Positions 1-10,215 of a stretch of DNA of 64,000 nucleotides are shown one piece after another. A program made the translations under genes and the position numbers. Source of the DNA: Escherichia phage vB_EcoS_HZ_ZJUN2; the sequence record PP216084, one strand, 5' to 3'. The notes below the pieces were generated by a model that saw only the letters and a program-made list of their open reading frames with translations, searched no databases and was not told where the DNA came from. Positions within the stretch are counted from its first letter, which is position 1. Each line of letters starts with the position of its first letter.

Positions 1-190
1 ATTATTCTCATTTAAGAAGTGGAATGATTCTCATTTAAGAAGTGGAATGCGAATGATAATTATTCTCATTTAAGAAGCGGAATGAGAACTATTCAAGAAG
101 TGGAATGAGAACTATTCAAGAAGCGAAATGATTCTCATCCTAGAAAGGGAATGCAAATGATAATGATTCTCATTTAAGAATGGAAGTGAG
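1..190. repeat. Degenerate tandem direct repeats, about 7 copies of a 23-30 bp unit (consensus ttctcatttaagaagtggaatga)
   Basis: Unit reiterated back to back across 1-190; contiguous, no unique spacers. Confidence 0.8.
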
Positions 191-315
191 AAACACTGTT
201 ATTTAAGTTATCCACAGACTTATTAACAGCACGATTTGACTTGACAGAATCCTAGCCATTTTGAGGCGTTATCCACCGACTTATCCACAGCTTATTCTAC
301 TGTATAAATATACAG
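184..315. repeat. Left arm of ~130 bp inverted repeat with three DnaA-box-like 9-mers and a 16 bp palindrome
   Basis: TTATCCACA at 208-216 and 281-289, TTATCCACC at 269-277; palindrome ctgtataaatatacag at 300-315; reverse complement aligns with 3648-3780. Confidence 0.75.
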
Positions 316-514
316 TATTCCTATGCAGTGAATAATTCTAATATAGGCTTAAAACGTCCTGAATCGCATTCTAGCGCGTTTTATTTTGGTGGGGATACTA
401 AAACAAGGGCAAAACTGGAGGAGGCTTAGAAATTAGTTAGCTCGCTAACGATCACACAAGGCGACACGTAACACCCTAATCATTAGCAGGCTAACCATCG
501 CGGGCGCGGTCAAA

Positions 515-538
515 TGAGAATCATTCTCATTTGAGAAT
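515..538. repeat. Interlocked short palindromes (tgagaat-c-attctca and attctca-ttt-gagaat)
   Basis: Direct reading; sequence related to the 1-190 repeat unit. Confidence 0.6.
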
Positions 539-682
539 TGGGGGCGCTCCCTGATAGTTGCGCCCGTGATTATTATAGTAGTGGGCAACCGTTACGCTTT
601 GCCCACTCCCGCCACTCATCTTGCTGTCTAGACTTGCGACGGCGTACTAAAAACCGCTTATACCAGTGATTAAACCATCGTT

Positions 683-886
683 TCATAGATCCCCCTCGGG
701 TAGTCGATGCGTGATCTTCTCCTCTTCCCCGTAGGAATCGACTAAATGCTGATAATAACCATCATGATCATAAATCACCTTATCATACTCACCACGCTCA
801 ACCGCTTGCCGGTTTTCCGGCGTATCGGGCACATAAAAAACGTCAACCATTGTACTGATTTTGGTTACAACAATTTTATTGCTCAT
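683..886 (-). CDS. Hypothetical protein, 67 aa
   Basis: ORF in track; acidic, no recognisable motif; last gene of minus-strand block. Confidence 0.5.
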   Translation of the reverse strand: MSNKIVVTKISTMVDVFYVPDTPENRQAVERGEYDKVIYDHDGYYQHLVDSYGEEEKITHRLPEGDL

Positions 887-996
887 AATAACGCCCTAGT
901 AAATATATTTTTGCCAATAGCGGCGAACGTTATCGCCACCAGCGGAATCATTAGCTGCCTTACTATTACCAACGAAAATATATAATCTCATTAGTA

Positions 997-1158
997 TTAT
1001 TTTCCCCGCATTAATTTATACATAACTAACATCCCACAAAACTGACCTAAAATAGTGCAGACAACAAGTGATAACACAATATTGCCTATGGTGTTATAAG
1101 TAACTACACCAACAATAAGGGATAATGCATACCCTAGCAGGGCAATATAAACAGCCAT
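997..1158 (-). CDS. Small hydrophobic membrane protein, 53 aa (below ORF-track cutoff)
   Basis: Hand translation MAVYIALLGYALSLIVGVVTYNTIGNIVLSLVVCTILGQFCGMLVMYKLMRGK; ATG 10 nt downstream of the stop of 1168-1509; AGGT upstream. Confidence 0.4.
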   Translation of the reverse strand: MAVYIALLGYALSLIVGVVTYNTIGNIVLSLVVCTILGQFCGMLVMYKLMRGK

Positions 1159-1167
1159 ATTATTTAC

Positions 1168-1509
1168 CTATTTTCGAAACGCTGTTTCAATACTATCAGC
1201 CGTGGATTGAATATACGCGCCTTTCATGATCAGGCGCTCGGTGCATATCTTGCGAAAAATATTAATAAAATCATCCTCATTTTCTGCAATTAATGCCTCA
1301 CCCATAACCTGAACGTCGCAAGATGCAAAGGTCAAAAATTGAAATGCTAGTTCACGGGCAACAACCGCATTAATCTTATAATGCGCCTTTCCCTCGTAAA
1401 TATTAACAACGCCCTTATAATCAGGCGAAAGCTGATTTAAGTAGTTTGCTAATAATCCCGGGCGGCAATTAGTAACAAAGCGATTGCCCTCGTAAATGAT
1501 CATTTGCAT
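1168..1509 (-). CDS. Hypothetical protein, 113 aa
   Basis: ORF in track; start ATG overlaps stop of upstream small ORF (ATGCAAATGA). Confidence 0.6.
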   Translation of the reverse strand: MQMIIYEGNRFVTNCRPGLLANYLNQLSPDYKGVVNIYEGKAHYKINAVVARELAFQFLTFASCDVQVMGEALIAENEDDFINIFRKICTERLIMKGAYIQSTADSIETAFRK

Positions 1510-1631
1510 AACCTCCCGATCAGATAGCCTGATAATAACATAAAGATCCCCAACGAAATGGGGTCATTCTTAAATAAGGTGGCGATAAAACCGCCAGCCA
1601 TTGCAAGGAGAACAACAAAAACGCTTTTCAT
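1500..1631 (-). CDS. Small two-helix membrane peptide, 43 aa (below ORF-track cutoff)
   Basis: Hand translation MKSVFVVLLAMAGGFIATLFKNDPISLGIFMLLSGYLIGRLCK; start ATG overlaps TGA stop of 1628-1840 (ATGA coupling). Confidence 0.4.
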   Translation of the reverse strand: MKSVFVVLLAMAGGFIATLFKNDPISLGIFMLLSGYLIGRLCK

Positions 1632-1840
1632 AGTACCCCACGAAACGCAGCGTAAAAGGTGGCAAAATGTTTAACTGTTTCAGCTATCACGTTGCCGCGC
1701 TTATCAAATTTTTTCTCAGTAACACGAAAGGCATTTTTATTACGTGCTACATATTCGATTTTACAGTCTGGACGCTCGAACGTGTTAACGTCCACCAGCT
1801 TAAAGCCTTTGGAACGAGCAAGGGAAACATTACGAATCAT
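1628..1840 (-). CDS. Hypothetical basic protein, 70 aa
   Basis: ORF in track; AAAGGAGAATAA RBS immediately upstream. Confidence 0.55.
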   Translation of the reverse strand: MIRNVSLARSKGFKLVDVNTFERPDCKIEYVARNKNAFRVTEKKFDKRGNVIAETVKHFATFYAAFRGVL

Positions 1841-1842
1841 TT

Positions 1843-1992
1843 TTATTCTCCTTTACTAGTCATGCAGCCCAGCAGATAAGAAAATGCAGCGATACCCGCG
1901 CCGATAATAACCGCGTGAACATCGAAAGCTATTGCAAACAAAGATAAAATAGCGCCCAAGATACCCGCCAGAATAGCTCGAAAAATAACCAT
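1843..1992 (-). CDS. Small membrane protein, 49 aa (below ORF-track cutoff)
   Basis: Hand translation MVIFRAILAGILGAILSLFAIAFDVHAVIIGAGIAAFSYLLGCMTSKGE; AGGAGA RBS upstream; its 3' end holds the RBS of the next gene. Confidence 0.4.
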   Translation of the reverse strand: MVIFRAILAGILGAILSLFAIAFDVHAVIIGAGIAAFSYLLGCMTSKGE

Positions 1993-2039
1993 TTTTATTC
2001 TCCTAGTTAGTGGGGGCGAAAGTAACGCCCCGTTATTAA

Positions 2040-2270
2040 TTACATTAAAACGATTTTGGCGGCTTGTTTTTTGGTGCAGTGTTCCGCTTTCAGGGTATCC
2101 AGCAAAAAGCCCGCCGTTTGCTGATCGATTTGATCATTATCATAAAGCGCCTGAATGGTGGTGTAAGTTTTAGCAATGCCGTATTCTTGCACCATTTCTT
2201 GAATGATCCAGCGATTTGATACCCAGCCTTTTCCAGTGAAAAGAGCGTCAGAAGAAGAAAAAGCAACCAT
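2040..2270 (-). CDS. Hypothetical protein, 76 aa
   Basis: ORF in track; followed on the minus strand by GC hairpin 2013-2031. Confidence 0.55.
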   Translation of the reverse strand: MVAFSSSDALFTGKGWVSNRWIIQEMVQEYGIAKTYTTIQALYDNDQIDQQTAGFLLDTLKAEHCTKKQAAKIVLM

Positions 2271-2331
2271 TATAAGCCTCCAAAATTTTTTGGGAAATTT
2301 TCAACCGTCCTCGAACGGTGTAAAGGCATTA

Positions 2332-2362
2332 TAACAAAAAGGCCGCCATAATCGGCGACCTT
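2332..2362 (-). terminator. Hairpin plus U-run, candidate intrinsic terminator after the 331 aa gene
   Basis: aaggccgcc-ataatc-ggcgacctt stem-loop at 2339-2362 with A-run 2334-2340 on the plus strand (U-run on minus). Confidence 0.45.
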
Positions 2363-2385
2363 TACAAAACTTTACATTAGACTAA

Positions 2386-3381
2386 TTATTGCTCGTTTTC
2401 GGTGTTAGTGGTAAAAGTAGAAATATCAATGCCCTTCACCATTTCATCGATCATTTCAGCAATGTTAAAACTTTGTACCATTTCTAGCATTGCCGCTTCC
2501 ATAGCTGCACCCGCTACCGCTTTCGCCTTCTGGTTACTCGGGGCGTACTGGTCAACCGCTACGCTCAGCAGGTTGGCAATGACTACTCGACCAATCGGCG
2601 TATCAATATAACCTTTAATCATGAACGGTGCTTTTTTAGCCGCTACTTTCGTGATTTGAGTCAATGCAATTTTACCCGCTTCCAGTTTTGCAGCATTTAC
2701 AACGGCGGACTTATTAGCGGCAACGATATTAGCGATCTTGGTCATAGTATTTTTTCCTTTGTTTTCAGTGATTTGAGTGTTAACGCTTTGAGTGTTAGAA
2801 TTTACAGTATGTTTTTCTATATTGTCAATAGGCTGATCCTCATCTTTCCAGAAAGAAAAGCCCGCTCTTTCGATATCCCCATCATATACGTATGGGTATA
2901 CTTCCGACGGTAACAAAAAATTGCCATCATCATCAAAGGCCATTACAGCCGCCAGACGATACCCGTCACCGATTGACCGATTCCAGCCAACGGATAAATA
3001 ACGCCAAAATGAATCAAGAAAATTTTCTACATCATAAAGATCCTTATCATAAGGCTCATAATTTTCTATTGAAAAAACTTCTAAGCCCGCCCCCGCATCA
3101 TAGGCTTTTACTGTGCTACCTTTTACAATTATAAAATCAGTATCCGGCCCCCTACTAGTAAGCAAGTGATTATCTCGATTATATAAGATAATCGTTGCCC
3201 CTTGCTTATATAAGGGTAGAAAGCTACGCATATCATAGGCGTCGAAATCATCAAAAAAATTCTGGTGAATATCTTCGACTTTGTTAACAAAGTGCTTAAT
3301 GCTGGTTGTTCTGCTACCGTCCAGCAGGTTGCGCAGCGCACCTTTTAAGACGGTTGCGTTATCTGGTTTATATAGCCTCAT
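2386..3381 (-). CDS. Hypothetical two-domain protein, 331 aa, pre-early-like region
   Basis: Long ORF with even codon usage; N-terminal acidic domain and C-terminal Ala/Lys-rich helical domain; no motif recognised. Confidence 0.7.
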   Translation of the reverse strand: MRLYKPDNATVLKGALRNLLDGSRTTSIKHFVNKVEDIHQNFFDDFDAYDMRSFLPLYKQGATIILYNRDNHLLTSRGPDTDFIIVKGSTVKAYDAGAGLEVFSIENYEPYDKDLYDVENFLDSFWRYLSVGWNRSIGDGYRLAAVMAFDDDGNFLLPSEVYPYVYDGDIERAGFSFWKDEDQPIDNIEKHTVNSNTQSVNTQITENKGKNTMTKIANIVAANKSAVVNAAKLEAGKIALTQITKVAAKKAPFMIKGYIDTPIGRVVIANLLSVAVDQYAPSNQKAKAVAGAAMEAAMLEMVQSFNIAEMIDEMVKGIDISTFTTNTENEQ

Positions 3382-3647
3382 TTGTTGGCCTCCCTCGTTA
3401 ATCGGTAGAAGAATGATAAAGGTAATTTTCTAGCATAGGCAAATATTATTTTACCTTTTTATTTTCCTTGCCTAACACCTAGTTTTATGCTAACCGCGCA
3501 GCGGTATAGTAAAGAGCAAAACACGGCGGAGCCACCAGGTCGACGCGTTGAGGCTTTACTTTAATATTACCTCACTGCGTTTAGCTCGTTAGAAAGCGTT
3601 TTAGGCGGCCTAAAATTGATTGCAGTCGTTAACACTGTCTTTCTACC

Positions 3648-3780
3648 CTGTATATTTATACAGTAGGATAACCTGTGGATAAGTCTGTGTAAAAGCCCTC
3701 ATATCGCCGCCTATCGTGTCAAATTATTTTGTGCTGTGGATAACGTTGTGGATAACTTAAATGATAGTGGTTCTCACTTA
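3648..3780. repeat. Right arm of the inverted repeat with three DnaA-box 9-mers (reverse orientation) and palindrome
   Basis: TGTGGATAA at 3674-3682, 3735-3743, 3747-3755; palindrome ctgtatatttatacag at 3648-3663; matches reverse complement of 184-315 with a central indel. Confidence 0.75.
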
Positions 3781-3950
3781 GGCCGATAGTTTCTTATAGT
3801 TATTATTTTTATAGTGATGATTTCTTATAGTTATTATTATAACGGTGATGATTTCTTATAGTTATTATTATATTGGTGATTATTTTTATAGTTATTATTT
3901 TTATAGTTATTATTTCTCATTAATTTATAATTATATTATATATCATGAAA
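3781..3950. repeat. AT-rich tandem repeat array (unit about 24 bp, gatgatttcttatagttattatt)
   Basis: At least 5 head-to-tail copies visible; the plus-strand ORF 3845-4048 is a translation artefact of this array. Confidence 0.75.
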
Positions 3951-4290
3951 TAGTTAGTTGGCTAATAAGATTTTCCGGGATTAATAGTCTGCTAATAATT
4001 CAGACCGTTACAATCCACCAGCATGATTATCATCCTAGCAATTATTAGTCTGCTATCTTTCTAATACACAACAACAAATAAAAGTCAAATATTTTATTTA
4101 ATAAATTAACGCAACGCCCCTCGATTTTTAAAAGTCAAGACCTTTTCCAACTATTTTTCAATTTTGCGTTTGTTAACGATTTGTTAAGTCGAAAATAGGC
4201 GGCCTAAAACGCGCCAGAACGCAATAAAGTTTTTAGCTATCCCATCATAAGGGATCACGCCGTTTATCGCTGCCACGAGCTTTTTAGATT

Positions 4291-4318: not shown

Positions 4319-4584
4319 TGAAAAATTTACTTGCCTATCTGCTATGTTTTGTGGTATTCGCGCGCCCGTTTCCTTTAAACTCGGGCAATCGCCGGACGTG
4401 TTGCCTTCTTTACATTTCTTTACAAAAATAAGGTTGCTCCTTTTTCGTTGTTTGTTATTATTTATCTCGTAGGGCGGCAATGACGAACTACACGGCGGGA
4501 AGTTTACCGCCGCGCTCTTTAAAAATTGGGTATATCTTAAAGCCTATCGGCGGTAAACTTATTACATTATAAGGAATCGACGAT

Positions 4585-4788
4585 ATGAAACAAACTTTAT
4601 TGATCACTGGTAAACCTATTAAGGCACTGGACAGCAGAACAAAAAATTTGTTGACAGTAGCGCAAAGATCGGTAAAATATCGATTTAAGCAGTACAAGAA
4701 AGGCCGCCAGCAAGGTTTGGAAATGATCTGGCGAAATATTATGATCGACCTGAAGGAAAATCATAAAAAACTGCAAAAAACAGCTTGA
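4585..4788 (+). CDS. Hypothetical small basic protein, 67 aa
   Basis: AAGGAA 8 nt upstream of ATG; Lys/Arg-rich; overlapped by antisense ORFs judged spurious. Confidence 0.35.
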   Translation: MKQTLLITGKPIKALDSRTKNLLTVAQRSVKYRFKQYKKGRQQGLEMIWRNIMIDLKENHKKLQKTA

Positions 4789-5017
4789 CACCATAGCCGA
4801 TAGGCTTTAAGATGTACCCAGTTCGATAAGAGCGATAACTTGATAAAATCTGACGGCCGGTACTTGCCATAATGTGCCCCGCCCCCTAACTGGGATATAG
4901 CGGCCCGCGTGGAGTTCCTTAAATTGATTTTATAATGGCGAGTGGATTTTTTCTTATTATCTGCTAGAAAGTAGCAGATAATGCGGAACAATCCACAAAT
5001 AACTTGGAGTTTATACC

Positions 5018-5310: not shown

Positions 5311-5370
5311 AACGATTAACATTATGTTAATCATTTAATCCCTTAAATTAAATTAATTGGAGTTTATATC

Positions 5371-5787
5371 ATGACTAACGTTAAAACCGAAAAAGCCGCA
5401 AAATTTTCTTGGAATGAAGAAAACACTCAGCAGGCTGTTACCATGTATCAGCAGTTAATCAACGAAAACGGGCTAGAATTCGCAAATAGCGACGGCTTGA
5501 AAGAGATCGCAAAGGCAGTAGGCGCGGCTTCTCCCGTATCCGTTCGGTCAAAATTGACCAGCGCGAAAGCCTATCAGAAAAGCGACAAGCCGCGCAAAGT
5601 TGGCGGCGGTAGTTCAATCCGCAAGGCTCATTATGTGCGAGTGATTGCAAAACATGCCATCGATTCCGGCATTATCAAGGACGCCGATGATCTGGCAAGC
5701 CTTGAAAGCGCGAAATTAGAAACGTTGGACGTCGTGGCGCAACTATTGGGCGTTGCCGATGAAGTAAAACAAGCCGCAGGCGAATAA
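5371..5787 (+). CDS. Putative DNA-binding protein, 138 aa (possible A2-like candidate)
   Basis: Conserved RBS context; carries the motif EIAKAVGAASPVSVRSKLTSAKAY also seen in 52881-53648 and 57438-57848; size fits a ~15 kDa pre-early protein. Confidence 0.5.
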   Translation: MTNVKTEKAAKFSWNEENTQQAVTMYQQLINENGLEFANSDGLKEIAKAVGAASPVSVRSKLTSAKAYQKSDKPRKVGGGSSIRKAHYVRVIAKHAIDSGIIKDADDLASLESAKLETLDVVAQLLGVADEVKQAAGE

Positions 5788-5794
5788 ATTTAAT

Positions 5795-5816
5795 TAGCGG
5801 GGAATACTCCCCGCTA
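5795..5816 (+). terminator. GC-rich palindromic hairpin after a pre-early cassette
   Basis: tagcgggg-aatact-ccccgcta. Confidence 0.4.
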
Positions 5817-5844
5817 TAATTTCCCTTTAATTGGAGTTATTAAA

Positions 5845-6042
5845 ATGATTTTCTTTCCTACTGAATCGCTCATTCTAGGCTTATTTATTATGGCGGCCTC
5901 GCTATTGTTCGCATATTTTCAAAATGACTTAGATTCATATTATTTTAAACGCAAATCTAAGTTAGCAAAGCGGTTAGGTCTGATTTGTTTTATTGCCGCC
6001 GTTGTTTGTGGTGTTAGTTCTAGCCTGATGCCTATTAGTTGA
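5845..6042 (+). CDS. Small membrane protein, 65 aa, two predicted TM helices
   Basis: Conserved RBS context ccctttaattGGAGtt; hydrophobic segments LILGLFIMAASLLFAY and LGLICFIAAVVCGV. Confidence 0.45.
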   Translation: MIFFPTESLILGLFIMAASLLFAYFQNDLDSYYFKRKSKLAKRLGLICFIAAVVCGVSSSLMPIS

Positions 6043-6054
6043 ATGTTGCAAATT

Positions 6055-6122
6055 ATAACGCCTATTATTCAAGGCGTTATATCTGGCAATATTTGCCAAT
6101 AACAAACGTTTTTTTTTTTTTT
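6055..6122 (+). terminator. Two hairpins followed by a T14 run
   Basis: ataacgcc...ggcgttat (6055-6080), tggcaatatttgccaa (6084-6099), T-run 6107-6122. Confidence 0.5.
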
Positions 6123-6147
6123 AATCCCTTTAATGGAGTTTATTATT

Positions 6148-7818
6148 ATGATTATTTCCGCAGAAAAACAAACCGTTATCCTGAAGCTGGCCGCTGACTT
6201 TAATTTTTATGGTAAACGTCTGCGCGCCACCCGGCTGGAAGTCTGCGACGATATATCAAAAGCGGTTTACGATACTGCAAAACACTCTACCGCGATTTGT
6301 GATTGGTTAGAAGCAAATAAACCAGCGAAACCGAAAACAGCGAAAGCGGTGAAAGCCATTAAAAACGACGAGCGCCCCGAAGCGGCTGGAATTATTTCTA
6401 GCACGGTGGAACAGTGGGAAGTAAAACAAGGTAAACGTTTTATTATTACATCGATTCAGAATAATACTTTCCCGCATAAAAACTTTTTAGCCTCGCTTGA
6501 GCAATATGCCCAATTTATTGGCGCTGATTTGCTTGTTTCTAAGTATATTTATAATAAAAACGGCTTTCAAAATGGTGAAGGCGCGGACGGTGTAAAATAT
6601 GATTCCGCGTTTGATAAATATATTTGCAGTAAAAACGTGTTTTTAAATAACCGCCGTTTTGCTTTCATGGCTGAAATTAATGTTTTGCCCACCGCAGATT
6701 ATCCGCTATCTGGATTCGCAGAAACTGCAACGGCGCTTAATCTGGAAGGTCTGGCAATTGGTCACGCTAAAATCACCGCCGAAAGCGTTCCAGCTTTAAA
6801 AGGTGAAGTGGTGCGCCGCATGTATTCCACCGGAACGGCAACGCTCAAAAACTACATTCAGCAGAAAGCAGGACAGAAAGCGGAGGCGCTGCATAATTTC
6901 GGGGCGCTGATTGTCGAGTTCGACGAAGACGGTGAGTTTTTTGTGCGCCAGCTTGAAACGATGGACGAAAGCGGCATGTTTTATGATCTGAATATCTGCG
7001 CCACTCCCGCCGGATGTTTTGAAACGTCGGGGCATGTTTTAGGTTTACAGTATGGCGACGTGCACGCTGAAAAATTAGATGAGGAGTGCGCCGCAGCGTC
7101 ATGGGGTCATGGTGATACTTATGGGCTAGTGGATATTCTTAAACCAAAATATCAATTCGTCCATGACGTTCACGATTTTACATCACGCAACCATCACAAC
7201 CGCGCTTCCGGTGTATTCCTAGCAAAACAATACGCCGCCGGACGTGATAAGGTTATGGATGATCTTATCGATACGGGGCGCGTACTGGAAGCAATGGAGC
7301 GCGATTTCTCGCAAACAATCATTGTTGAATCGAATCACGATCTGGCGTTATCTCGTTGGCTTGATGATCGAAATGCTAACATCAAAGACGACCCAGCAAA
7401 CGCCGAATTATATCACCGCCTGAATGCGGCTATCTATGCAGCTATCGCAAATCATGACGACACTTTCAACGTGCTAGATTATGCGCTGCGTAATGTTGCA
7501 GGCTGCGAGTTTAACGCCATTTTTTTAACGACTGATCAATCTTTTAAGATTGCAGGCATTGAGTGCGGTGTACACGGTCACAACGGCATTAACGGCAGCC
7601 GTGGAAACCCAAAACAATTTAAGAAATTGGGCAAATTAAACACCGGACACACCCACACCGCCAGCATTTACGGCGGCGTATACACGGCGGGCGTCGCTGG
7701 TTCCCTCGATATGGGCTACAACGTTGGCGCGTCAAGCTGGACGCAAACGCATTTAATTACATACGCAAACGGGCAACGCACTTTAATTGACTTTAAGAAC
7801 GGCAAATTTTTCGCATAA
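6148..7818 (+). CDS. A1: A1-like pre-early protein, 556 aa, calcineurin-like metallophosphatase (candidate DNase)
   Basis: Start moved to ATG at 6148 (the ATGGAG at 6133 is the RBS); motifs GDVHA, GHGD, ESNHD, GVHGHNG, TGHTHT; length equals recalled T5 A1. Confidence 0.6.
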   Translation: MIISAEKQTVILKLAADFNFYGKRLRATRLEVCDDISKAVYDTAKHSTAICDWLEANKPAKPKTAKAVKAIKNDERPEAAGIISSTVEQWEVKQGKRFIITSIQNNTFPHKNFLASLEQYAQFIGADLLVSKYIYNKNGFQNGEGADGVKYDSAFDKYICSKNVFLNNRRFAFMAEINVLPTADYPLSGFAETATALNLEGLAIGHAKITAESVPALKGEVVRRMYSTGTATLKNYIQQKAGQKAEALHNFGALIVEFDEDGEFFVRQLETMDESGMFYDLNICATPAGCFETSGHVLGLQYGDVHAEKLDEECAAASWGHGDTYGLVDILKPKYQFVHDVHDFTSRNHHNRASGVFLAKQYAAGRDKVMDDLIDTGRVLEAMERDFSQTIIVESNHDLALSRWLDDRNANIKDDPANAELYHRLNAAIYAAIANHDDTFNVLDYALRNVAGCEFNAIFLTTDQSFKIAGIECGVHGHNGINGSRGNPKQFKKLGKLNTGHTHTASIYGGVYTAGVAGSLDMGYNVGASSWTQTHLITYANGQRTLIDFKNGKFFA

Positions 7819-7828
7819 TTAAATTTAT

Positions 7829-7850
7829 AAGCGGGGTATATACCCCGCTT
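7829..7850 (+). terminator. Perfect 22 bp palindromic hairpin after A1-like gene
   Basis: aagcggggtata-taccccgctt. Confidence 0.45.
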
Positions 7851-7883
7851 ATGCCCCTTATTAAATTAATTGGAGTTATAAAC

Positions 7884-8276
7884 ATGAAAAAGCAAAATAT
7901 TCCATTCGATCGCGCTCAATCTTCCATTGTTCTGGTTTATTCAAATGGTGAGCGTTACCACGTCGAGGCCGGTCACGTTGTTGATGATTTAATCGAGTTT
8001 AATGAGGCGCTACAGATCACGACTTTCGCCTATACGCAAGGCCGCGCTAGTAGTCACATAAAGGCCGCAGGCGTTTATGTTGATACGGTGAAGCAGGAAA
8101 CGATTATCATCGACGCCGTAAAAGCTGGCCTAGCGTTTGCAGTTGTCGCACCTTGTCCCGCTTGCCTTGATGATCAGCTATCGAGTGCAAAGGTCTACAT
8201 TTGCGCGGGTATTCGTTCCCATGTATCCGGCGAAGATATTAGTTTTATCGCTGATGCGCTGGCTTATGGTCTTTGA
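7884..8276 (+). CDS. Hypothetical pre-early protein, 130 aa
   Basis: Start set to ATG at 7884 downstream of conserved ttaattGGAGtt; followed by hairpin 8290-8316. Confidence 0.5.
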   Translation: MKKQNIPFDRAQSSIVLVYSNGERYHVEAGHVVDDLIEFNEALQITTFAYTQGRASSHIKAAGVYVDTVKQETIIIDAVKAGLAFAVVAPCPACLDDQLSSAKVYICAGIRSHVSGEDISFIADALAYGL

Positions 8277-8289
8277 TAGTTGATTTATT

Positions 8290-8316
8290 ATTGCCCGCTG
8301 ATAAATAGCGGGCAAT
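8290..8316 (+). terminator. GC-rich hairpin after pre-early cassette
   Basis: attgcccgct-gataaat-agcgggcaat. Confidence 0.4.
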
Positions 8317-8356
8317 GCTGGATAAACTAAATCCCTTTAATGGAGAACGTAACAAA

Positions 8357-9091
8357 ATGAATCAAGTTAAAACGAATATTACCCGTAATTTTCCGCATGT
8401 TTCCCGCGTCATGATTTGGGATCTTGATGGCACTATCGTTAATTCATTCCATCGCGTAGCGCCTTGCTTTGATAGTGAGGGTAATCTAGATTTAAATAAG
8501 TATAAAAATGAGGCGTGCAAACATGATTTAATAATGCAAGATACACTCCTACCGCTTGTTACCTATATGCGCCAATGTATGAATGATGTTAATACGTTAA
8601 ACATTATTTGCACCGCTCGATTAATGAGCAAGTCGGACTATTATTATTTGCGCAAACAAGGATTGCGCGGGCGTGGGGATAGTAATATCCGTGTATTTTC
8701 CCGCGATACACTGCACAAATATTTTGAAGCTGATAAGGTTAGCGAAATATACCACAGCAAGGACGCAGTTTATAAAAGCTACTACTTTGAGTTATTTAAG
8801 CAGTTATATCCGAACGCTGATTTCACGATGATCGACGACCATAAAGGAGTATTGGCGGCGGCGGCATCATATGGATTTAAAACTCTGGACGCGCAAGCCG
8901 TTAATGATATTCTATCGATTGGGGTCACATTGATAGGTGAAACCTTTATCGACGAATCTCTTGAGGATGATAATGATTATCAGTTCCTAGCAGATCGCTT
9001 GCAATTATGTTGGGAAAGTATGACAGAAGAAGAACGCGCAGAATATAGTTGCAGCCCGCAACAATATATTGAGAAATTAAAAGTTGCGTAA
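8357..9091 (+). CDS. dmp: HAD-superfamily phosphatase, 244 aa, probable 5'-deoxyribonucleotidase (Dmp-like)
   Basis: Start set to ATG at 8357 after GGAGAACG RBS; HAD motif I DLDGT, motif II CTAR, C-terminal acidic DD; pre-early location. Confidence 0.5.
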   Translation: MNQVKTNITRNFPHVSRVMIWDLDGTIVNSFHRVAPCFDSEGNLDLNKYKNEACKHDLIMQDTLLPLVTYMRQCMNDVNTLNIICTARLMSKSDYYYLRKQGLRGRGDSNIRVFSRDTLHKYFEADKVSEIYHSKDAVYKSYYFELFKQLYPNADFTMIDDHKGVLAAAASYGFKTLDAQAVNDILSIGVTLIGETFIDESLEDDNDYQFLADRLQLCWESMTEEERAEYSCSPQQYIEKLKVA

Positions 9092-9108
9092 TAATTAAAG
9101 TTGAAATT

Positions 9109-9145
9109 GTTTCACCTTGCAATTAAAATGGTTGCAGGGTGAAAC
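9109..9145. terminator. 14 bp-arm inverted repeat hairpin between convergent transcription units
   Basis: gtttcaccttgcaa-ttaaaatgg-ttgcagggtgaaac (one mismatch). Confidence 0.45.
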
Positions 9146-9256
9146 AGTTAGCATGGTAATAGTAACGGGGGTGGCGGTTAGCAGACTAAGTATTCTCCCC
9201 CAACCCACTGCACCCACCCACGCGTACGTAATCCAAAGAATTTGGCAAAAGTCAAA

Positions 9257-9502
9257 TTAGTGCATAGAATGGTCATCAAACCTGTGTTCTGGTCTAAACT
9301 CACGGAATCTCTTCCGCGACGCCCGAGAACCATCATTCCACTCCAGCTCAAACTCCGCACGTTTCTCATCGAACTTCCGCTCCCTTTCCGCAATCTCCCG
9401 CGATACTTCCGCAATATATTTACGATGCCTGTCGATAGCCGCAGTCATTCCGAAAACTCCCGCGAGTATCCCGGTAATAAAAGCAATTACAATACTAAAC
9501 AT
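9257..9502 (-). CDS. Hypothetical membrane-anchored protein, 81 aa
   Basis: N-terminal TM helix then charged coiled segment; same strand as llp; overlapped by plus-strand ORF judged less likely. Confidence 0.4.
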   Translation of the reverse strand: MFSIVIAFITGILAGVFGMTAAIDRHRKYIAEVSREIAERERKFDEKRAEFELEWNDGSRASRKRFREFRPEHRFDDHSMH

Positions 9503-9605
9503 TATTTATATTCCCGCAACTTACGTTCAATACGAGCTAAGTGGTTATCCAAGACACATTGCCCTAGAATTACCACAACTAATAAAACAATAATTATTAC
9601 TCCCA

Positions 9606-9791
9606 TTAAATCCACCCCGCCATAGCTGCTAACCAAAAGCCTACGAAGACTAGGAATAATACAAAACCAAATCCATAAATATTAATCCACGCTTCATACA
9701 CTTCCCCGCGTCTGTTCTTTCTTTTGTTGCCGTTTGACATGTTTTTCATACTCCCGTAAATGTGGTATCTGGGATATTCTAGAAATTGCAC
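9606..9791 (-). CDS. Hypothetical small protein, 61 aa, C-terminal TM helix (uncertain)
   Basis: GTG start; overlaps alternative ORF 9694-9879 in another frame; cannot be resolved by eye. Confidence 0.25.
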   Translation of the reverse strand: MQFLEYPRYHIYGSMKNMSNGNKRKNRRGEVYEAWINIYGFGFVLFLVFVGFWLAAMAGWI

Positions 9792-9981
9792 GAACCATTA
9801 TAACTGTTCCTATGAGATCCATCATTTCATCAAACCCAGATTCTTCTAGAAGAAATGATGTTCCCATTACATCTTCCATAGTGTCTTGTATGACGTCCTG
9901 AATGATTTCATTAATCGCACTGTGAACTGCTTTGCCCTAGGAGTCATCTCAAGTGGCATTGGTTCCTGGAAGGGCTTCTCC

Positions 9982-10215
9982 TCAGAAAACTCCTTCACAT
10001 GTATTCCCCTCGGTAAAGTAGCTTACTGGAGCCCAGAAAGATCCATAGGCCATGATTGGTGCCACCAGGAACATATCCCCTTTTCTATCAAAAACATTAG
10101 CCTTATATTTCACATGATCTTGTACATAGTAGGCCTCACATTTAATATCTTTAGGCCCAAAAGTAGAGCAAGCCGAAAGAAGTACCACTGCCATAGCTAA
10201 AAATAATTTTTTCAT
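9982..10215 (-). CDS. llp: Lytic-conversion lipoprotein Llp-like, 77 aa precursor
   Basis: Signal peptide with lipobox LLSAC (Cys17), mature 61 aa; divergent from the receptor-binding gene as recalled for T5. Confidence 0.7.
   Translation of the reverse strand: MKKLFLAMAVVLLSACSTFGPKDIKCEAYYVQDHVKYKANVFDRKGDMFLVAPIMAYGSFWAPVSYFTEGNTCEGVF

What the first reader, a model, noticed from the sequence alone, without database searches (positions are those of the whole stretch)
184..3780. ~130 bp inverted repeats with DnaA boxes bracket a 3.3 kb block of unknown minus-strand genes
The segment 184-315 and the reverse complement of 3648-3780 share a palindrome (TGTATA-N3/4-TATACA) and three DnaA-box 9-mers each. 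Between the arms lie seven minus-strand ORFs (683-3381), including three small membrane proteins and a 331 aa protein with no recognisable motif. Outside the arms are two unrelated tandem-repeat arrays (1-190, 3781-3950). This looks like an injection-stop or replication/packaging control structure, or the footprint of an invertible or exchangeable cassette, and host DnaA titration is a plausible function.
Basis: partly seen in the sequence, partly recalled or inferred. Interest (0 to 1): 0.65.

Follow-up and report, generated by a model that had tools for sequence, protein, structure and literature searches.

The report
Known T5 injection-stop inverted repeats
This is the already-published pair of ~131-bp inverted repeats with DnaA boxes that flank a dispensable early-gene block in the first-injected end of T5-like phage genomes; what may be new is that each repeat also carries a near-consensus match to the binding site of the host SOS repressor LexA.

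Summary
Arms 184-315 and 3648-3780 align far above chance, and all five exact TTATCCACA boxes in the 64 kb lie inside them.

It is not new. The window is a T5-like phage read antiparallel to the T5 map. The arms are Davison's IRD'spacerIRC' (distal, inside the annotated injection stop signal) and IRCspacerIRD (A2-proximal), published with eight DnaA boxes and a DnaA-anchoring model that remains untested.

Three additions:
- The palindrome at the block-facing end of each arm is a near-consensus LexA/SOS operator (26.4 and 20.9 bits; genuine E. coli operators 8-24.6). I found no paper noting this.
- In the distal arm, the module DnaA box, 2-3 bp, DnaA box, 7-9 nt, LexA site keeps its geometry out to Vibrio phages (A1 ~31-34% identical). 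It is almost absent from bacterial genomes.
- The inter-arm block is inverted as a unit in Klebsiella phages (76 records) and in My1. No recombinase or within-genus polymorphism was found.

Primer mapping shows a published viable T5 mutant lacks the proximal arm and the block, so the pair is not essential.

Best reading: paired landing pads for host DnaA and LexA that delimit first-step-transfer DNA. DnaA titration and an origin role are unlikely.

The parts
184..315 (+). Distal arm, the ortholog of T5 IRD'spacerIRC' and part of the annotated injection stop signal. This is the last of the two arms to enter the cell.
   Evidence: repeat and alignment; 90-97% identical to orthologous arms in 40 loci; T5 ortholog at 9411-9542; T5 iss feature 9140-10149; Davison's description.
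3648..3780 (-). A2-proximal arm, the ortholog of T5 IRCspacerIRD (Repeat Region 2). It lies between the divergent pre-early promoter regions.
   Evidence: T5 ortholog at 6098-6228, between promoters 5938-6012(-) and 6411-6489(+). It is removed in the viable T5 mutant deleted from hegG to 017.
208..228 (+). Distal arm, DnaA box pair 1-2: TTATCCACA gac TTATTAACA. Box 1 is consensus; box 2 is a weaker variant.
   Evidence: Box 1 is nearly invariant and box 2 variable across 59 unique arms.
269..300 (+). Distal arm, DnaA box pair 3-4 (TTATCCACC gac TTATCCACA), then gc, then a fifth DnaA-like 9-mer TTATTCTAC that overlaps the LexA-like site.
298..317 (.). LexA/SOS-operator-like palindrome TACTGTATAAATATACAGTA at the block-facing end of the distal arm.
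   Evidence: One mismatch to the 20-mer consensus, with none expected in shuffles. It scores 26.4 bits on a matrix built from 15 E. coli operators, above every one of them (operators from PMC3009722). Conserved family-wide.
3646..3665 (.). LexA/SOS-operator-like palindrome CCCTGTATATTTATACAGTA at the block-facing end of the proximal arm.
   Evidence: Three mismatches, all in or near the flank, with the CTGT-N8-ACAG core intact; 20.9 bits against a window 99.99th percentile of 12.1.
3674..3694 (-). Proximal arm, DnaA box pair 3-4, reading on the - strand TTTTACACA gac TTATCCACA. The fifth DnaA-like 9-mer TTATCCTAC lies at 3663-3671.
3735..3755 (-). Proximal arm, DnaA box pair 1-2: TTATCCACA acg TTATCCACA.
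185..197 (.). Conserved palindrome AGTGAGAA-N-CACT at the outer end of the arm (its partner is at 3766-3778). The binder is unknown.
   Evidence: Columns at least 95% conserved across 59 unique arms.
683..3381 (-). Enclosed pre-early block of eight ORFs: 683-886 (67 aa), 997-1158 (53 aa, membrane), 1168-1509 (113 aa), 1500-1631 (43 aa, membrane), 1628-1840 (70 aa), 1843-1992 (49 aa, membrane), 2040-2270 (76 aa), 2386-3381 (331 aa).
   Evidence: ORFs; the 70-aa ORF is phrog_4227, the Ung-dependent abasic-site nickase family; the 331-aa ORF is PF24450 (DUF7566), the homolog of T5 gene 011. T5 genes 011, 013 and 015 are toxic on ectopic expression, and the whole block is dispensable. Gene order and strand are conserved in T5-type relatives.
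1..190 (+). Tandem repeats just outside the distal arm, corresponding to the repeat cluster of T5 Repeat Region 3. By homology to T5 the FST shear point maps to about window position 30 (+/- about 200).
   Evidence: periods 23 and 58; T5 arm 9332-9462 and shear point about 9618 in AY587007 coordinates.
3790..3917 (+). Very AT-rich tandem array (16-22% GC) just outside the proximal arm, corresponding to T5 Repeat Region 1/2.
   Evidence: In T5 this array is separated from the arm by the hegG insertion.
3382..3647 (-). Non-coding leader of the block. It should contain the promoter of the 331-aa gene, inferred by homology to the T5 promoter 6411-6489 upstream of gene 011.
   Evidence: T5 annotation; promoter-like sites on the - strand at 3474-3445 and 3442-3413. 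This is an inference.

Best explanation
What it is: the known inverted-repeat pair of the T5-type first-step-transfer (FST) region. The distal arm belongs to the injection stop signal (iss).

Each arm reads as a composite landing pad for host DNA-binding proteins already present when the DNA enters. From outside to inside it holds a conserved outer palindrome, a strong and a weak DnaA box, a spacer, a weak and a strong DnaA box (with a fifth weak one), and a near-consensus LexA operator facing the enclosed block.

Proposed mechanism:
1. The genome's left end enters first, which is descending window coordinates. The proximal arm, then the block, then the distal arm reach the cytoplasm.
2. DnaA nucleates on the strong boxes and fills the weak ones. 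A LexA dimer sits on the operator.
3. This forms two inward-facing nucleoprotein caps at the ends of the strongly transcribed block.
4. The distal cap lies about 150 bp inside the FST shear point. It helps hold the DNA at the pause (Davison's membrane-DnaA anchoring), or stops RNA polymerase from running into DNA still threaded through the envelope, or both.
5. The proximal cap is an accessory duplicate that does the same at the other end, which would explain why the block can sit in either orientation.
6. A1 and A2 later release the pause.

Shown here: the sequence features, their statistics, their geometry, their conservation across the family, the dispensability of the proximal arm, and the inversion.

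Inferred: binding of DnaA and LexA, anchoring, and roadblock.

Rough split of my belief: identity with the published repeats 0.97; DnaA binds 0.65; LexA binds 0.6; a role in the injection pause 0.3; a role as a transcription boundary 0.2.
For: Identity:
- The region matches 527 T5-like records, at about 4.9-9.5 kb of the left terminal repeat in records with the standard layout.
- Spc35 and T5 annotate this region as FST DNA and iss.
- The published description matches in arm length, box pairs with a 3-bp gap, and a 52-nt interval, here 217-268 and 3695-3746.

Selection on the sites rather than on the arm as a whole:
- In 59 unique arms the conserved columns are box 1, box 4, the TTAT of the weak boxes, TTGAC in the spacer, the outer palindrome and the LexA-like box. 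The sequence between them varies.

DnaA boxes:
- There are 5 exact boxes against 0.67 expected, all in the arms.
- Exact boxes sit at both ends of the divergent block, facing inward, in Pantoea AAS21, Proteus phage 1, and Vibrio phages PG07 and Gary, whose A1 is 31-65% identical.

LexA-like site:
- Scores are 26.4 and 20.9 bits, against 8.0-24.6 for 15 genuine E. coli operators in leave-one-out and a window 99.99th percentile of 12.1.
- The two best sites in each of 7 divergent loci fall at the arm positions.
- The distal geometry (box, 2-3 bp, box, 7-9 nt, 20-mer) is kept in the window, T5, IME260, My1, AAS21, Proteus phage 1, PG07 and Gary.
- The composite pattern occurs in 49 IMG/VR stretches, which are T5-like genomes plus environmental contigs with distant A1/A2. 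It occurs only 4 times in 185,579 species genomes, one of them a mis-binned T5-like fragment.

Host-factor logic:
- Davison reports that the pause happens without protein synthesis, and that injection is complete in vitro into FhuA proteoliposomes.

Symmetry:
- After the inversion in IME260 and My1, both arms keep the same orientation, with the LexA site facing the block.
Against: - No experiment shows DnaA or LexA bound to these arms. Papers from 2023 and 2026 say functional studies are lacking.
- The viable T5 mutant deleted from about 5390 to 9160 lacks the proximal arm and the block, so pairing, looping or bracketing cannot be essential. Davison's Type 4 phages naturally lack that arm.
- In Vibrio phages and Proteus phage 1 the proximal LexA-like site lacks adjacent DnaA boxes.
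- In T5 itself only 4 boxes fit the strict consensus, and the proximal LexA-like site has 4 flank mismatches (18.7 bits).
- The LexA-like sites do not overlap the mapped T5 promoters.
- It is not obvious how proteins bound to DNA that has already entered could stop further entry.
- A2, a DNA-binding dimer, is conserved at 32-65% identity and could be the real binder of the palindrome.
Confidence: 0.5

Rival explanations
1. The arms are binding sites for phage proteins. A2, or the A1-A2 complex, would recognise the palindrome and the repeats in order to release or cut the paused DNA and start second-step transfer. The resemblance to host LexA and DnaA motifs would be coincidence or deliberate mimicry.
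For: A2 is an essential DNA-binding dimer required for second-step transfer, and its target is unknown. A2 homologs exist in every phage that carries the module, including environmental contigs. Other conserved elements in the arm have no host factor I can name: AGTGAGAA-N-CACT and TTGAC.
Against: A 19-of-20 match to the host LexA consensus, and exact TTATCCACA boxes, persist while A2 diverges to 32-45% identity. The pause itself needs no phage protein synthesis, although release does.
Confidence: 0.15
2. The sites are ordinary transcription regulators. LexA and DnaA would repress or tune pre-early promoters next to the arms, tying early gene expression to the host's SOS or replication state.
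For: A promoter-like site on the + strand (3629-3656, TTAACA-16-TATATT) places its -10 hexamer inside the proximal LexA-like box. The proximal arm lies between divergent promoter regions.
Against: The mapped or annotated T5 promoters lie about 90 and 180 bp outside the arm, not over the sites. The distal arm follows the operon terminator and has no gene to control. The matching promoter position in the distal arm is poor by my reading. Consensus scans give many chance hits (30 found against 16.5 expected).
Confidence: 0.1
3. Each arm together with its AT-rich repeat array is an oriC-like DnaA-dependent origin. Alternatively, the arms act as a sink that titrates host DnaA.
For: A cluster of DnaA boxes lies next to a 16-22% GC tandem array at 3790-3917. 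Head-to-tail double boxes with a 3-bp gap also occur in unrelated DnaA-box clusters, such as L068.
Against: In T5 the array and the arm are separated by a homing-endonuclease gene, and the phage is viable. The proximal arm is dispensable. Davison cites electron-microscopy mapping of origins near the genome centre, and notes that replication genes are not yet in the cell during FST. Eight to ten boxes cannot titrate cellular DnaA (general knowledge). The host chromosome is destroyed within minutes, so titration would achieve nothing.
Confidence: 0.05
4. The repeats exist to mediate recombination, as a switch that inverts or swaps the enclosed gene cassette.
For: The inter-arm segment is inverted as a unit in Klebsiella phages and in My1, with the flanks unchanged. 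The content between the arms is highly variable.
Against: No recombinase is found in or near the block. Orientation is fixed within genera (197 against 76 records). The arms are about 77% identical to each other but 83-99% identical to their orthologs, so they are not being homogenised. The conserved columns are protein-site-like modules rather than a crossover core. Inversion therefore looks like a rare by-product.
Confidence: 0.05

Closest known systems
T5 inverted repeats IRD'spacerIRC' and IRCspacerIRD, in Repeat Regions 3 and 2 of the left terminal repeat (Wang et al. 2005 nomenclature; Davison, bioRxiv 10.1101/866236)
   Same: Same genome position, about 131-bp arms, two DnaA-box pairs per arm with 3-bp gaps, a 52-nt interval, and a variable block between the arms. 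The distal arm lies inside the annotated injection stop signal.
   Different: Nothing structural; this is an orthologous copy in another isolate. Not mentioned in that preprint: the LexA-operator match of the terminal palindrome (no mention of LexA or SOS), the word 'inversion', and phages beyond its 25-genome set, such as the Vibrio phages examined here.
E. coli DnaA-box clusters (oriC; also datA and DARS, from memory)
   Same: Consensus TTATCCACA boxes accompanied by weaker neighbours in head-to-tail arrays, suggesting cooperative filling from a strong box.
   Different: The gaps are 3 bp (2 bp before the fifth box), whereas my recollection for the oriC arrays is 2 bp. There is no demonstrated unwinding element or replication role, the element is duplicated in inverted orientation, and it is fused to a LexA-like operator.
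Gammaproteobacterial LexA operators (SOS boxes), for example tisB/istR, umuDC and sbmC
   Same: CTGT-N8-ACAG with an AT-rich centre and TA flanks. The distal site differs by one base from the istR2 operator listed in PMC3009722.
   Different: It lies in a virulent phage, not over a mapped promoter, and at a fixed distance from a DnaA-box pair. Binding is untested.
Phage T7 genome entry, in which host RNA polymerase pulls the DNA in (general knowledge, from memory)
   Same: A staged entry in which only the leading end is first available, and in which transcription towards the DNA that has not yet entered matters.
   Different: T5 pauses without transcription-driven entry and needs A1 and A2 to resume. 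The analogy only motivates the roadblock idea and is not evidence.
Invertible segments of phages Mu (G) and P1 (C), driven by Gin/Cin serine invertases (general knowledge, from memory)
   Same: A gene block bounded by inverted repeats and found in two orientations.
   Different: Here there is no invertase, the arms are diverged (about 77% identical), and orientation is fixed per genus rather than switching within a population.

Membership tests
T5-type iss-associated inverted repeats (IRD'spacerIRC' / IRCspacerIRD) | Located in the terminal-repeat (FST) region of a T5-like phage, between the A2-A1-dmp operon and the repeat boundary | tested here: met
   A2 at 5371-5787, A1 at 6133-7818 and dmp at 8315-9091 lie downstream on the + strand. 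The region matches about 4.9-9.5 kb of annotated left terminal repeats.
T5-type iss-associated inverted repeats (IRD'spacerIRC' / IRCspacerIRD) | Two arms of about 131 bp in inverted orientation, orthologous to the T5 arms | tested here: met
   Arms of 132 and 133 nt. They are 90.9% and 83.3% identical to T5 9411-9542 and 6098-6228.
T5-type iss-associated inverted repeats (IRD'spacerIRC' / IRCspacerIRD) | Eight DnaA or DnaA* boxes, in pairs separated by 3 bp, with a constant 52-bp interval | tested here: met
   Four boxes per arm in two pairs with 3-bp gaps. There are 52 nt between the end of box 1 and the start of box 3 in both arms: 217-268 and 3695-3746.
T5-type iss-associated inverted repeats (IRD'spacerIRC' / IRCspacerIRD) | Acts as the cis-acting signal that halts DNA transfer at about 8% of the genome | not testable with these tools
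   Only positional evidence is available: by homology the distal arm ends about 150 bp inside the T5 shear point. The literature says there is no functional test yet.
Functional DnaA-binding site cluster | 9-mers fitting TT(A/T)TNCACA, enriched over chance | tested here: met
   Six of the 8 consensus-fitting 9-mers in the 64 kb lie in the arms. There are 5 exact boxes against 0.67 expected. The boxes are conserved in distant relatives.
Functional DnaA-binding site cluster | Bound by DnaA protein | not testable with these tools
   Needs gel-shift, footprinting or ChIP.
LexA operator (SOS box, gammaproteobacterial type) | CTGT-N8-ACAG palindrome with an AT-rich centre, scoring within the range of genuine operators | tested here: met
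   One and 3 mismatches to the 20-mer consensus, with 0 expected. Scores are 26.4 and 20.9 bits against 8.0-24.6 for 15 E. coli operators.
LexA operator (SOS box, gammaproteobacterial type) | Overlaps or adjoins a promoter that it represses | tested here: inconclusive
   The annotated T5 promoters do not overlap the sites. One predicted -10 hexamer lies inside the proximal site, but such scans have a high chance rate.
LexA operator (SOS box, gammaproteobacterial type) | Bound by LexA and released on RecA-stimulated cleavage | not testable with these tools
   Needs gel-shift or ChIP. The host-covariation test failed because A1-bearing phages of alphaproteobacteria lack the FST layout.
Site-specific invertible segment (Gin/Cin/Hin type) | Recombinase gene in or next to the segment | tested here: not met
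   No recombinase family among the eight block proteins in Pfam or PHROGs. The neighbours are the A2, A1 and dmp operon genes.
Site-specific invertible segment (Gin/Cin/Hin type) | Both orientations present among close relatives or within a population | tested here: not met
   All T5-type loci share one orientation (197 records). The inverted state occurs only in the Klebsiella-phage genus (76 records) and in My1. Heterogeneity within a population could not be tested.
oriC-type DnaA-dependent origin | DnaA-box cluster kept adjacent to an AT-rich unwinding element, and required for replication | tested here: not met
   The adjacency seen here is broken in T5 by the hegG insertion. The proximal arm is dispensable. 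The requirement for replication was not tested directly.
Fur box (considered for the 7-1-7 palindromes beside the distal arm) | Match to TGATAAT-N-ATTATCA, conserved across relatives | tested here: inconclusive
   There are 5 matches at up to 2 mismatches against 0.88 expected, and 3 of them lie at 54-529. However, the half-sites mix TGATAAT, TGAGAAT and TGCGAAT, and the motif is absent in Vibrio phages D332 and Gary.

The most novel reading that the evidence does not exclude
The T5 injection stop region is an array of high-affinity sites for host DNA-binding proteins already present in the cell. These would be a DnaA-box array fused at fixed spacing to a consensus LexA operator, possibly with Fur-like palindromes beside it. 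Occupancy of this ancient composite by host proteins, rather than DNA structure or DnaA alone, would set the first-step-transfer boundary, by anchoring the DNA or by blocking RNA polymerase. LexA would then be a previously unrecognised host factor in the two-step entry of Demerecviridae genomes.
Probability: 0.3. Interest if true: 0.7.

Novelty: already known. Interest (0 to 1): 0.35.

Why it matters
How T5 stops after injecting 8% of its genome has been an open question for about sixty years. The structure flagged here is the leading published candidate for the stop signal, so finding it again in one more isolate adds little.

What could matter is the extra handle. A consensus-grade LexA operator sits at a fixed distance from the DnaA boxes. 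It is conserved out to Vibrio phages and to uncultured relatives, and it is nearly absent from bacterial genomes. That turns a vague 'complex repeat region' into a short list of host proteins that can be tested with standard mutants and ChIP.

Primer mapping of a published viable deletion also narrows the problem. Only the distal arm can be needed, which argues against models that require the two arms to pair, loop or knot.

Tried and rejected
- Profile search for distant relatives with an A1 alignment in IMG/VR returned the same genomes as the A2 search. I switched to tblastn against GenBank phages.
- The double box TTATCCACA-N3-TTATCCACA as a T5 signature: more than 120 unrelated IMG/VR contigs carry it, and none resembles the arms. 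L068 is an unrelated low-GC DnaA-box cluster. The double box is therefore generic.
- Host-covariation test for LexA: Rhizobium phage RHEph27 has an A1 homolog, but it is a podovirus with no FST-like block. The test does not apply.
- Host origin of the arm: no match in 5,426 E. coli genomes, and the composite has only 4 hits in 185,579 species genomes. It is not host mimicry or recent capture.
- Ongoing gene conversion between arms: rejected, because each arm is closer to its ortholog than to its partner.
- Orientation of the central AA/TT of the LexA-like palindrome as a marker of inversion: it shows no correlation with block orientation.
- Fur-box reading of the 7-1-7 palindromes: enriched, but the half-sites are heterogeneous and the motif is not family-wide. 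Kept only as a lead.
- CTAAAACGC motif: not enriched in the window overall.
- Davison's 2015 review could not be opened. Wang et al. 2005 and Heusterspreute et al. 1987 are in subscription journals that this library does not cover. I therefore cannot rule out that one of them mentions the LexA resemblance. Searches of the open library found nothing.
- Searches were input errors and gave no result.

Full report
**1.

The two arms, 184-315 and 3648-3779, are 132 nt long, 77% complementary and 3332 nt apart. A gapped alignment gives 107 identical of 136 columns. The local score is 118, against 15.5 +/- 2.3 for shuffles.

Exact TTATCCACA occurs five times in the 64 kb, against 0.67 +/- 0.79 in shuffles, and all five copies are in the arms. 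With the Schaper-Messer consensus quoted by Davison, TT(A/T)TNCACA, six of eight matches in the window are in the arms.

Each arm carries four boxes, not three. They form two pairs with 3-bp gaps, the pairs start 61 bp apart, and there are 52 nt between box 1 and box 3 in both arms. A fifth DnaA-like 9-mer follows box 4 after 2 bp.

The flanking tandem arrays are real. The block holds eight plausible minus-strand ORFs.

**2. Where we are**

The region matches 527 T5-like phage records. The best is Escherichia phage HildyBeyeler at 93.7% identity. A2, A1 and dmp follow on the + strand.

In records with the standard layout the match falls at about 4.9-9.5 kb of the left terminal repeat, on the minus strand. 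The window therefore reads antiparallel to the T5 map, and DNA enters the cell in descending window coordinates.

The T5 orthologs of the arms are 9411-9542 and 6098-6228 in NC_005859. The first lies inside the feature 'injection stop signal (iss)', 9140-10149, just past a terminator at 9275-9296. The second lies between divergent promoters at 5938-6012 and 6411-6489.

**3. It is already described**

[quoted passage not shown] His description includes:
- eight DnaA or DnaA* boxes in pairs 3 bp apart;
- a constant 52-bp spacer;
- a highly variable coding block between the arms;
- conservation in 25 T5-like phages.

He proposes that membrane-bound DnaA binds these boxes and stops injection, and that A1 and A2 cut the DNA to restart it. 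He credits the first DnaA-box observation to a 1987 paper.

Later papers repeat this and state that functional tests are lacking. The finding as written is therefore a rediscovery.

**4. What is conserved inside the arms**

I collected 40 IMG/VR loci through A2, plus T5 and Spc35.

Each arm is 83-99% identical to its ortholog but only about 77% identical to its partner, so the arms are not being homogenised. The arm-to-arm distance ranges from about 1.6 to 4 kb.

An alignment of 59 unique arms shows discrete conserved modules separated by variable sequence:
- an outer palindrome AGTGAGAA-N-CACT;
- box 1;
- the TTAT of the weak boxes 2 and 3;
- TTGAC in the spacer;
- box 4;
- TTATCCTAC;
- the terminal palindrome.

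**5. The palindrome looks like a LexA operator**

CTGT-N8-ACAG occurs four times in the window against 0.82 expected.

The only two sites within three mismatches of the 20-mer TACTGTATATATATACAGTA are 298-317 (one mismatch) and 3646-3665 (three mismatches). None are expected by chance. The core of the consensus printed in PMC3009722 Table 4 is this 20-mer, and the table lists operators upstream of UV-induced E. coli genes.

I built a symmetrised matrix from 15 of those operators:
- the phage sites score 26.4 and 20.9 bits;
- the genuine operators score 8.0-24.6 in leave-one-out;
- the 99.99th percentile of the window is 12.1.

In T5, IME260, Pantoea AAS21, Proteus phage 1 and Vibrio phages D332, PG07 and Gary, the two best-scoring sites fall at the arm positions.

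Davison's preprint does not mention LexA or SOS. No paper in the open library links LexA to first-step transfer, the injection stop or T5-like phages. I could not read the 1987, 2005 and 2015 papers, so the novelty of this point is provisional.

**6. Depth of conservation**

Using A1 as a family marker, I fetched distant Demerecviridae. Exact TTATCCACA boxes sit at both ends of the divergently transcribed block and face inward, even where A1 is only 31-34% identical.

The distal module keeps its geometry in the window, T5, IME260, My1, AAS21, Proteus phage 1, PG07 and Gary: box, 2-3 bp, box, 7-9 nt, LexA-like 20-mer. In the Vibrio phages and Proteus phage 1 the proximal LexA-like site lacks adjacent boxes.

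The composite pattern TTATCCACA-N9-11-CTGTAT-N4-ATACAG occurs in 49 IMG/VR stretches. These are T5-like genomes plus environmental contigs that encode A1 and A2 at about 30-40% identity. It has four hits in 185,579 species genomes, one of which is a mis-binned T5-like fragment. The arm has no homolog in 5,426 E. coli genomes.

The composite is therefore an old hallmark of this phage family, not a copy of a host locus.

**7. Orientation of the block**

In all T5-type loci the block has the same gene order and strand, with insertions and deletions.

In Klebsiella phage IME260 the homologs of the 331-aa gene and three downstream genes are collinear with those of Pantoea AAS21 and the T5 type, but lie on the opposite strand relative to A2. 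The sequences outside both arms keep their place.

The T5-type arrangement is collinear over at least 80% of the query in 197 GenBank records. The inverted arrangement is collinear in 76 records, all Klebsiella phages.

Pectobacterium phage My1 is also inverted, with both arms intact and the LexA-like sites still facing the block.

No recombinase is present. This looks like rare homologous inversion across the repeats, not a switch.

**8. The genes**

The 70-aa ORF belongs to the family of the Ung-dependent abasic-site nickase. The 331-aa protein is DUF7566, the homolog of T5 gene 011. The rest are PHROGs of unknown function.

A 2026 preprint reports that T5 genes 011, 013 and 015 are toxic when expressed alone, and that 13 of the 17 pre-early genes are dispensable.

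**9. An experimental constraint**

The same preprint built a viable mutant deleted from hegG to 017. Its deletion primers map to T5 5361-5389 and 9161-9186.

The deletion therefore removes the proximal arm (6098-6228) and the whole block, and keeps the distal arm. This boundary is my inference from the primer positions.

The phage forms smaller plaques. Its kinetics and virulence group with the other mutants that lack dmp. Any model that needs both arms, such as pairing, looping or a 'knot', cannot describe an essential function.

**10. How it most likely works**

The pause needs no new protein synthesis, and Davison reports that injection is complete in vitro into FhuA proteoliposomes. A host factor already in the cell is therefore a reasonable cause.

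The arm reads as a set of sites for such factors. I favour two inward-facing nucleoprotein caps of DnaA plus LexA:
- The distal cap, about 150 bp inside the shear point, would help hold the DNA, or stop RNA polymerase leaving the strongly transcribed block from running into DNA that has not yet entered, or both.
- The proximal cap would be an accessory copy.

A symmetric boundary fits the observation that the block works in either orientation.

Binding, anchoring and roadblock are all inferred. I cannot choose between anchoring and roadblock with these tools.

Rival explanations, in decreasing order of my belief: A2 or A1-A2 binding sites, ordinary promoter control, an origin or DnaA sink, and a recombination switch. 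The reasons are given in the rival entries.

**11. Verdict**

DnaA titration and origin roles are unlikely.

The cassette idea is right only as evolutionary history.

The LexA-operator match and the fixed DnaA-LexA geometry across the family are the parts worth a specialist's attention, because they give direct experiments on an old question.

Noticed in passing
window 54-68, 158-172, 515-529; also 8968-8982: 7-1-7 palindromes TGA(T/G)AAT-N-ATT(A/C)TCA resemble the Fur-box core TGATAAT-N-ATTATCA and flank the distal arm (5 matches at up to 2 mismatches against 0.88 expected). A perfect 15/15 core lies inside dmp, about 240 bp from the genome's left terminus, and is also present in T5 (L002 233) and IME260 (L041 13912). 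The motif clusters beside the distal arm in most lineages but is absent in Vibrio phages D332 and Gary, and the half-sites are mixed, so the binder is uncertain.
   Followed up: partly
window 306-309 and 3654-3657; arm alignment: The central bases of the LexA-like palindrome flip between AAA and TTT among otherwise near-identical arms in different phages. The flip does not track the orientation of the block.
   Followed up: partly
window 185-197 and 3766-3778; window 245-250 and 3714-3719: Two further elements are nearly invariant across 59 unique arms and have no binder I can name: the outer palindrome AGTGAGAA-N-CACT and a TTGAC(A) motif in the middle of the spacer.
   Followed up: no
window 363-383, 3596-3612, 4196-4225: A motif of the type CTAAAACGC...TTCTAAGCG recurs just inside both arms and again upstream of the A2 operon (I10 and I15). 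Similar sequences appear in the inverted-repeat lists of AAS21 and of Vibrio phages D332, PG07 and Gary. Both exact CTAAAACGC copies in the window lie here, but the motif is not enriched overall.
   Followed up: partly
window 4513-4551 / 4796-4834 and 4942-4996; 4651-4678 and 4785-4813: A 39-nt inverted repeat (85% complementary) and a 25-nt hairpin lie upstream of the A2 operon, together with the two best sigma-70-like sites in the region (TTGACA-16-TAAAAT, 11 of 12 matches). This probably corresponds to T5 Repeat Region 1 and the strong pre-early promoters.
   Followed up: no
L068 2730-2850 (IMG/VR contig 3300045988_068554): An unrelated low-GC viral contig has a dense DnaA-box cluster upstream of a gene. 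It includes the identical unit GTTATCCACAGACTTATCCACA and two double boxes 61 bp apart. More than 120 IMG/VR contigs carry TTATCCACA-N3-TTATCCACA.
   Followed up: partly
L261 (RZZU01000077.1, labelled Clostridia bacterium MAG): This 3-kb contig encodes homologs of five block proteins at 80-97% identity, plus a short fragment of the 331-aa gene, and it carries the distal arm. It is a T5-like phage fragment mis-binned into a bacterial MAG.
   Followed up: yes
L228, L239, L253 (IMG/VR contigs of 40-45 kb): These three contigs carry the same DnaA-box plus LexA-like composite next to a very AT-rich repeat, but no A1 or A2 homolog lies within the fetched flanks. They may be fragments of distant relatives or a different phage group.
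   Followed up: no
L262 94-127 (Pantoea sp. B65) and L260 (Ca. Malihini olakiniferum): These are two of the four bacterial hits to the composite pattern: a single DnaA box about 10 nt from a strong SOS-box-like palindrome (for example TACTGTATATCCATACAGTA). The neighbouring genes were not examined.
   Followed up: no
L263 (AY692264, T5 st0): The T5 record notes that the 37-kDa product of the gene homologous to the 331-aa ORF is unessential and lies in the classical del1 deletion. In that record the left terminal repeat ends at 9749, coincident with the major single-strand interruption at 9748/9749.
   Followed up: no
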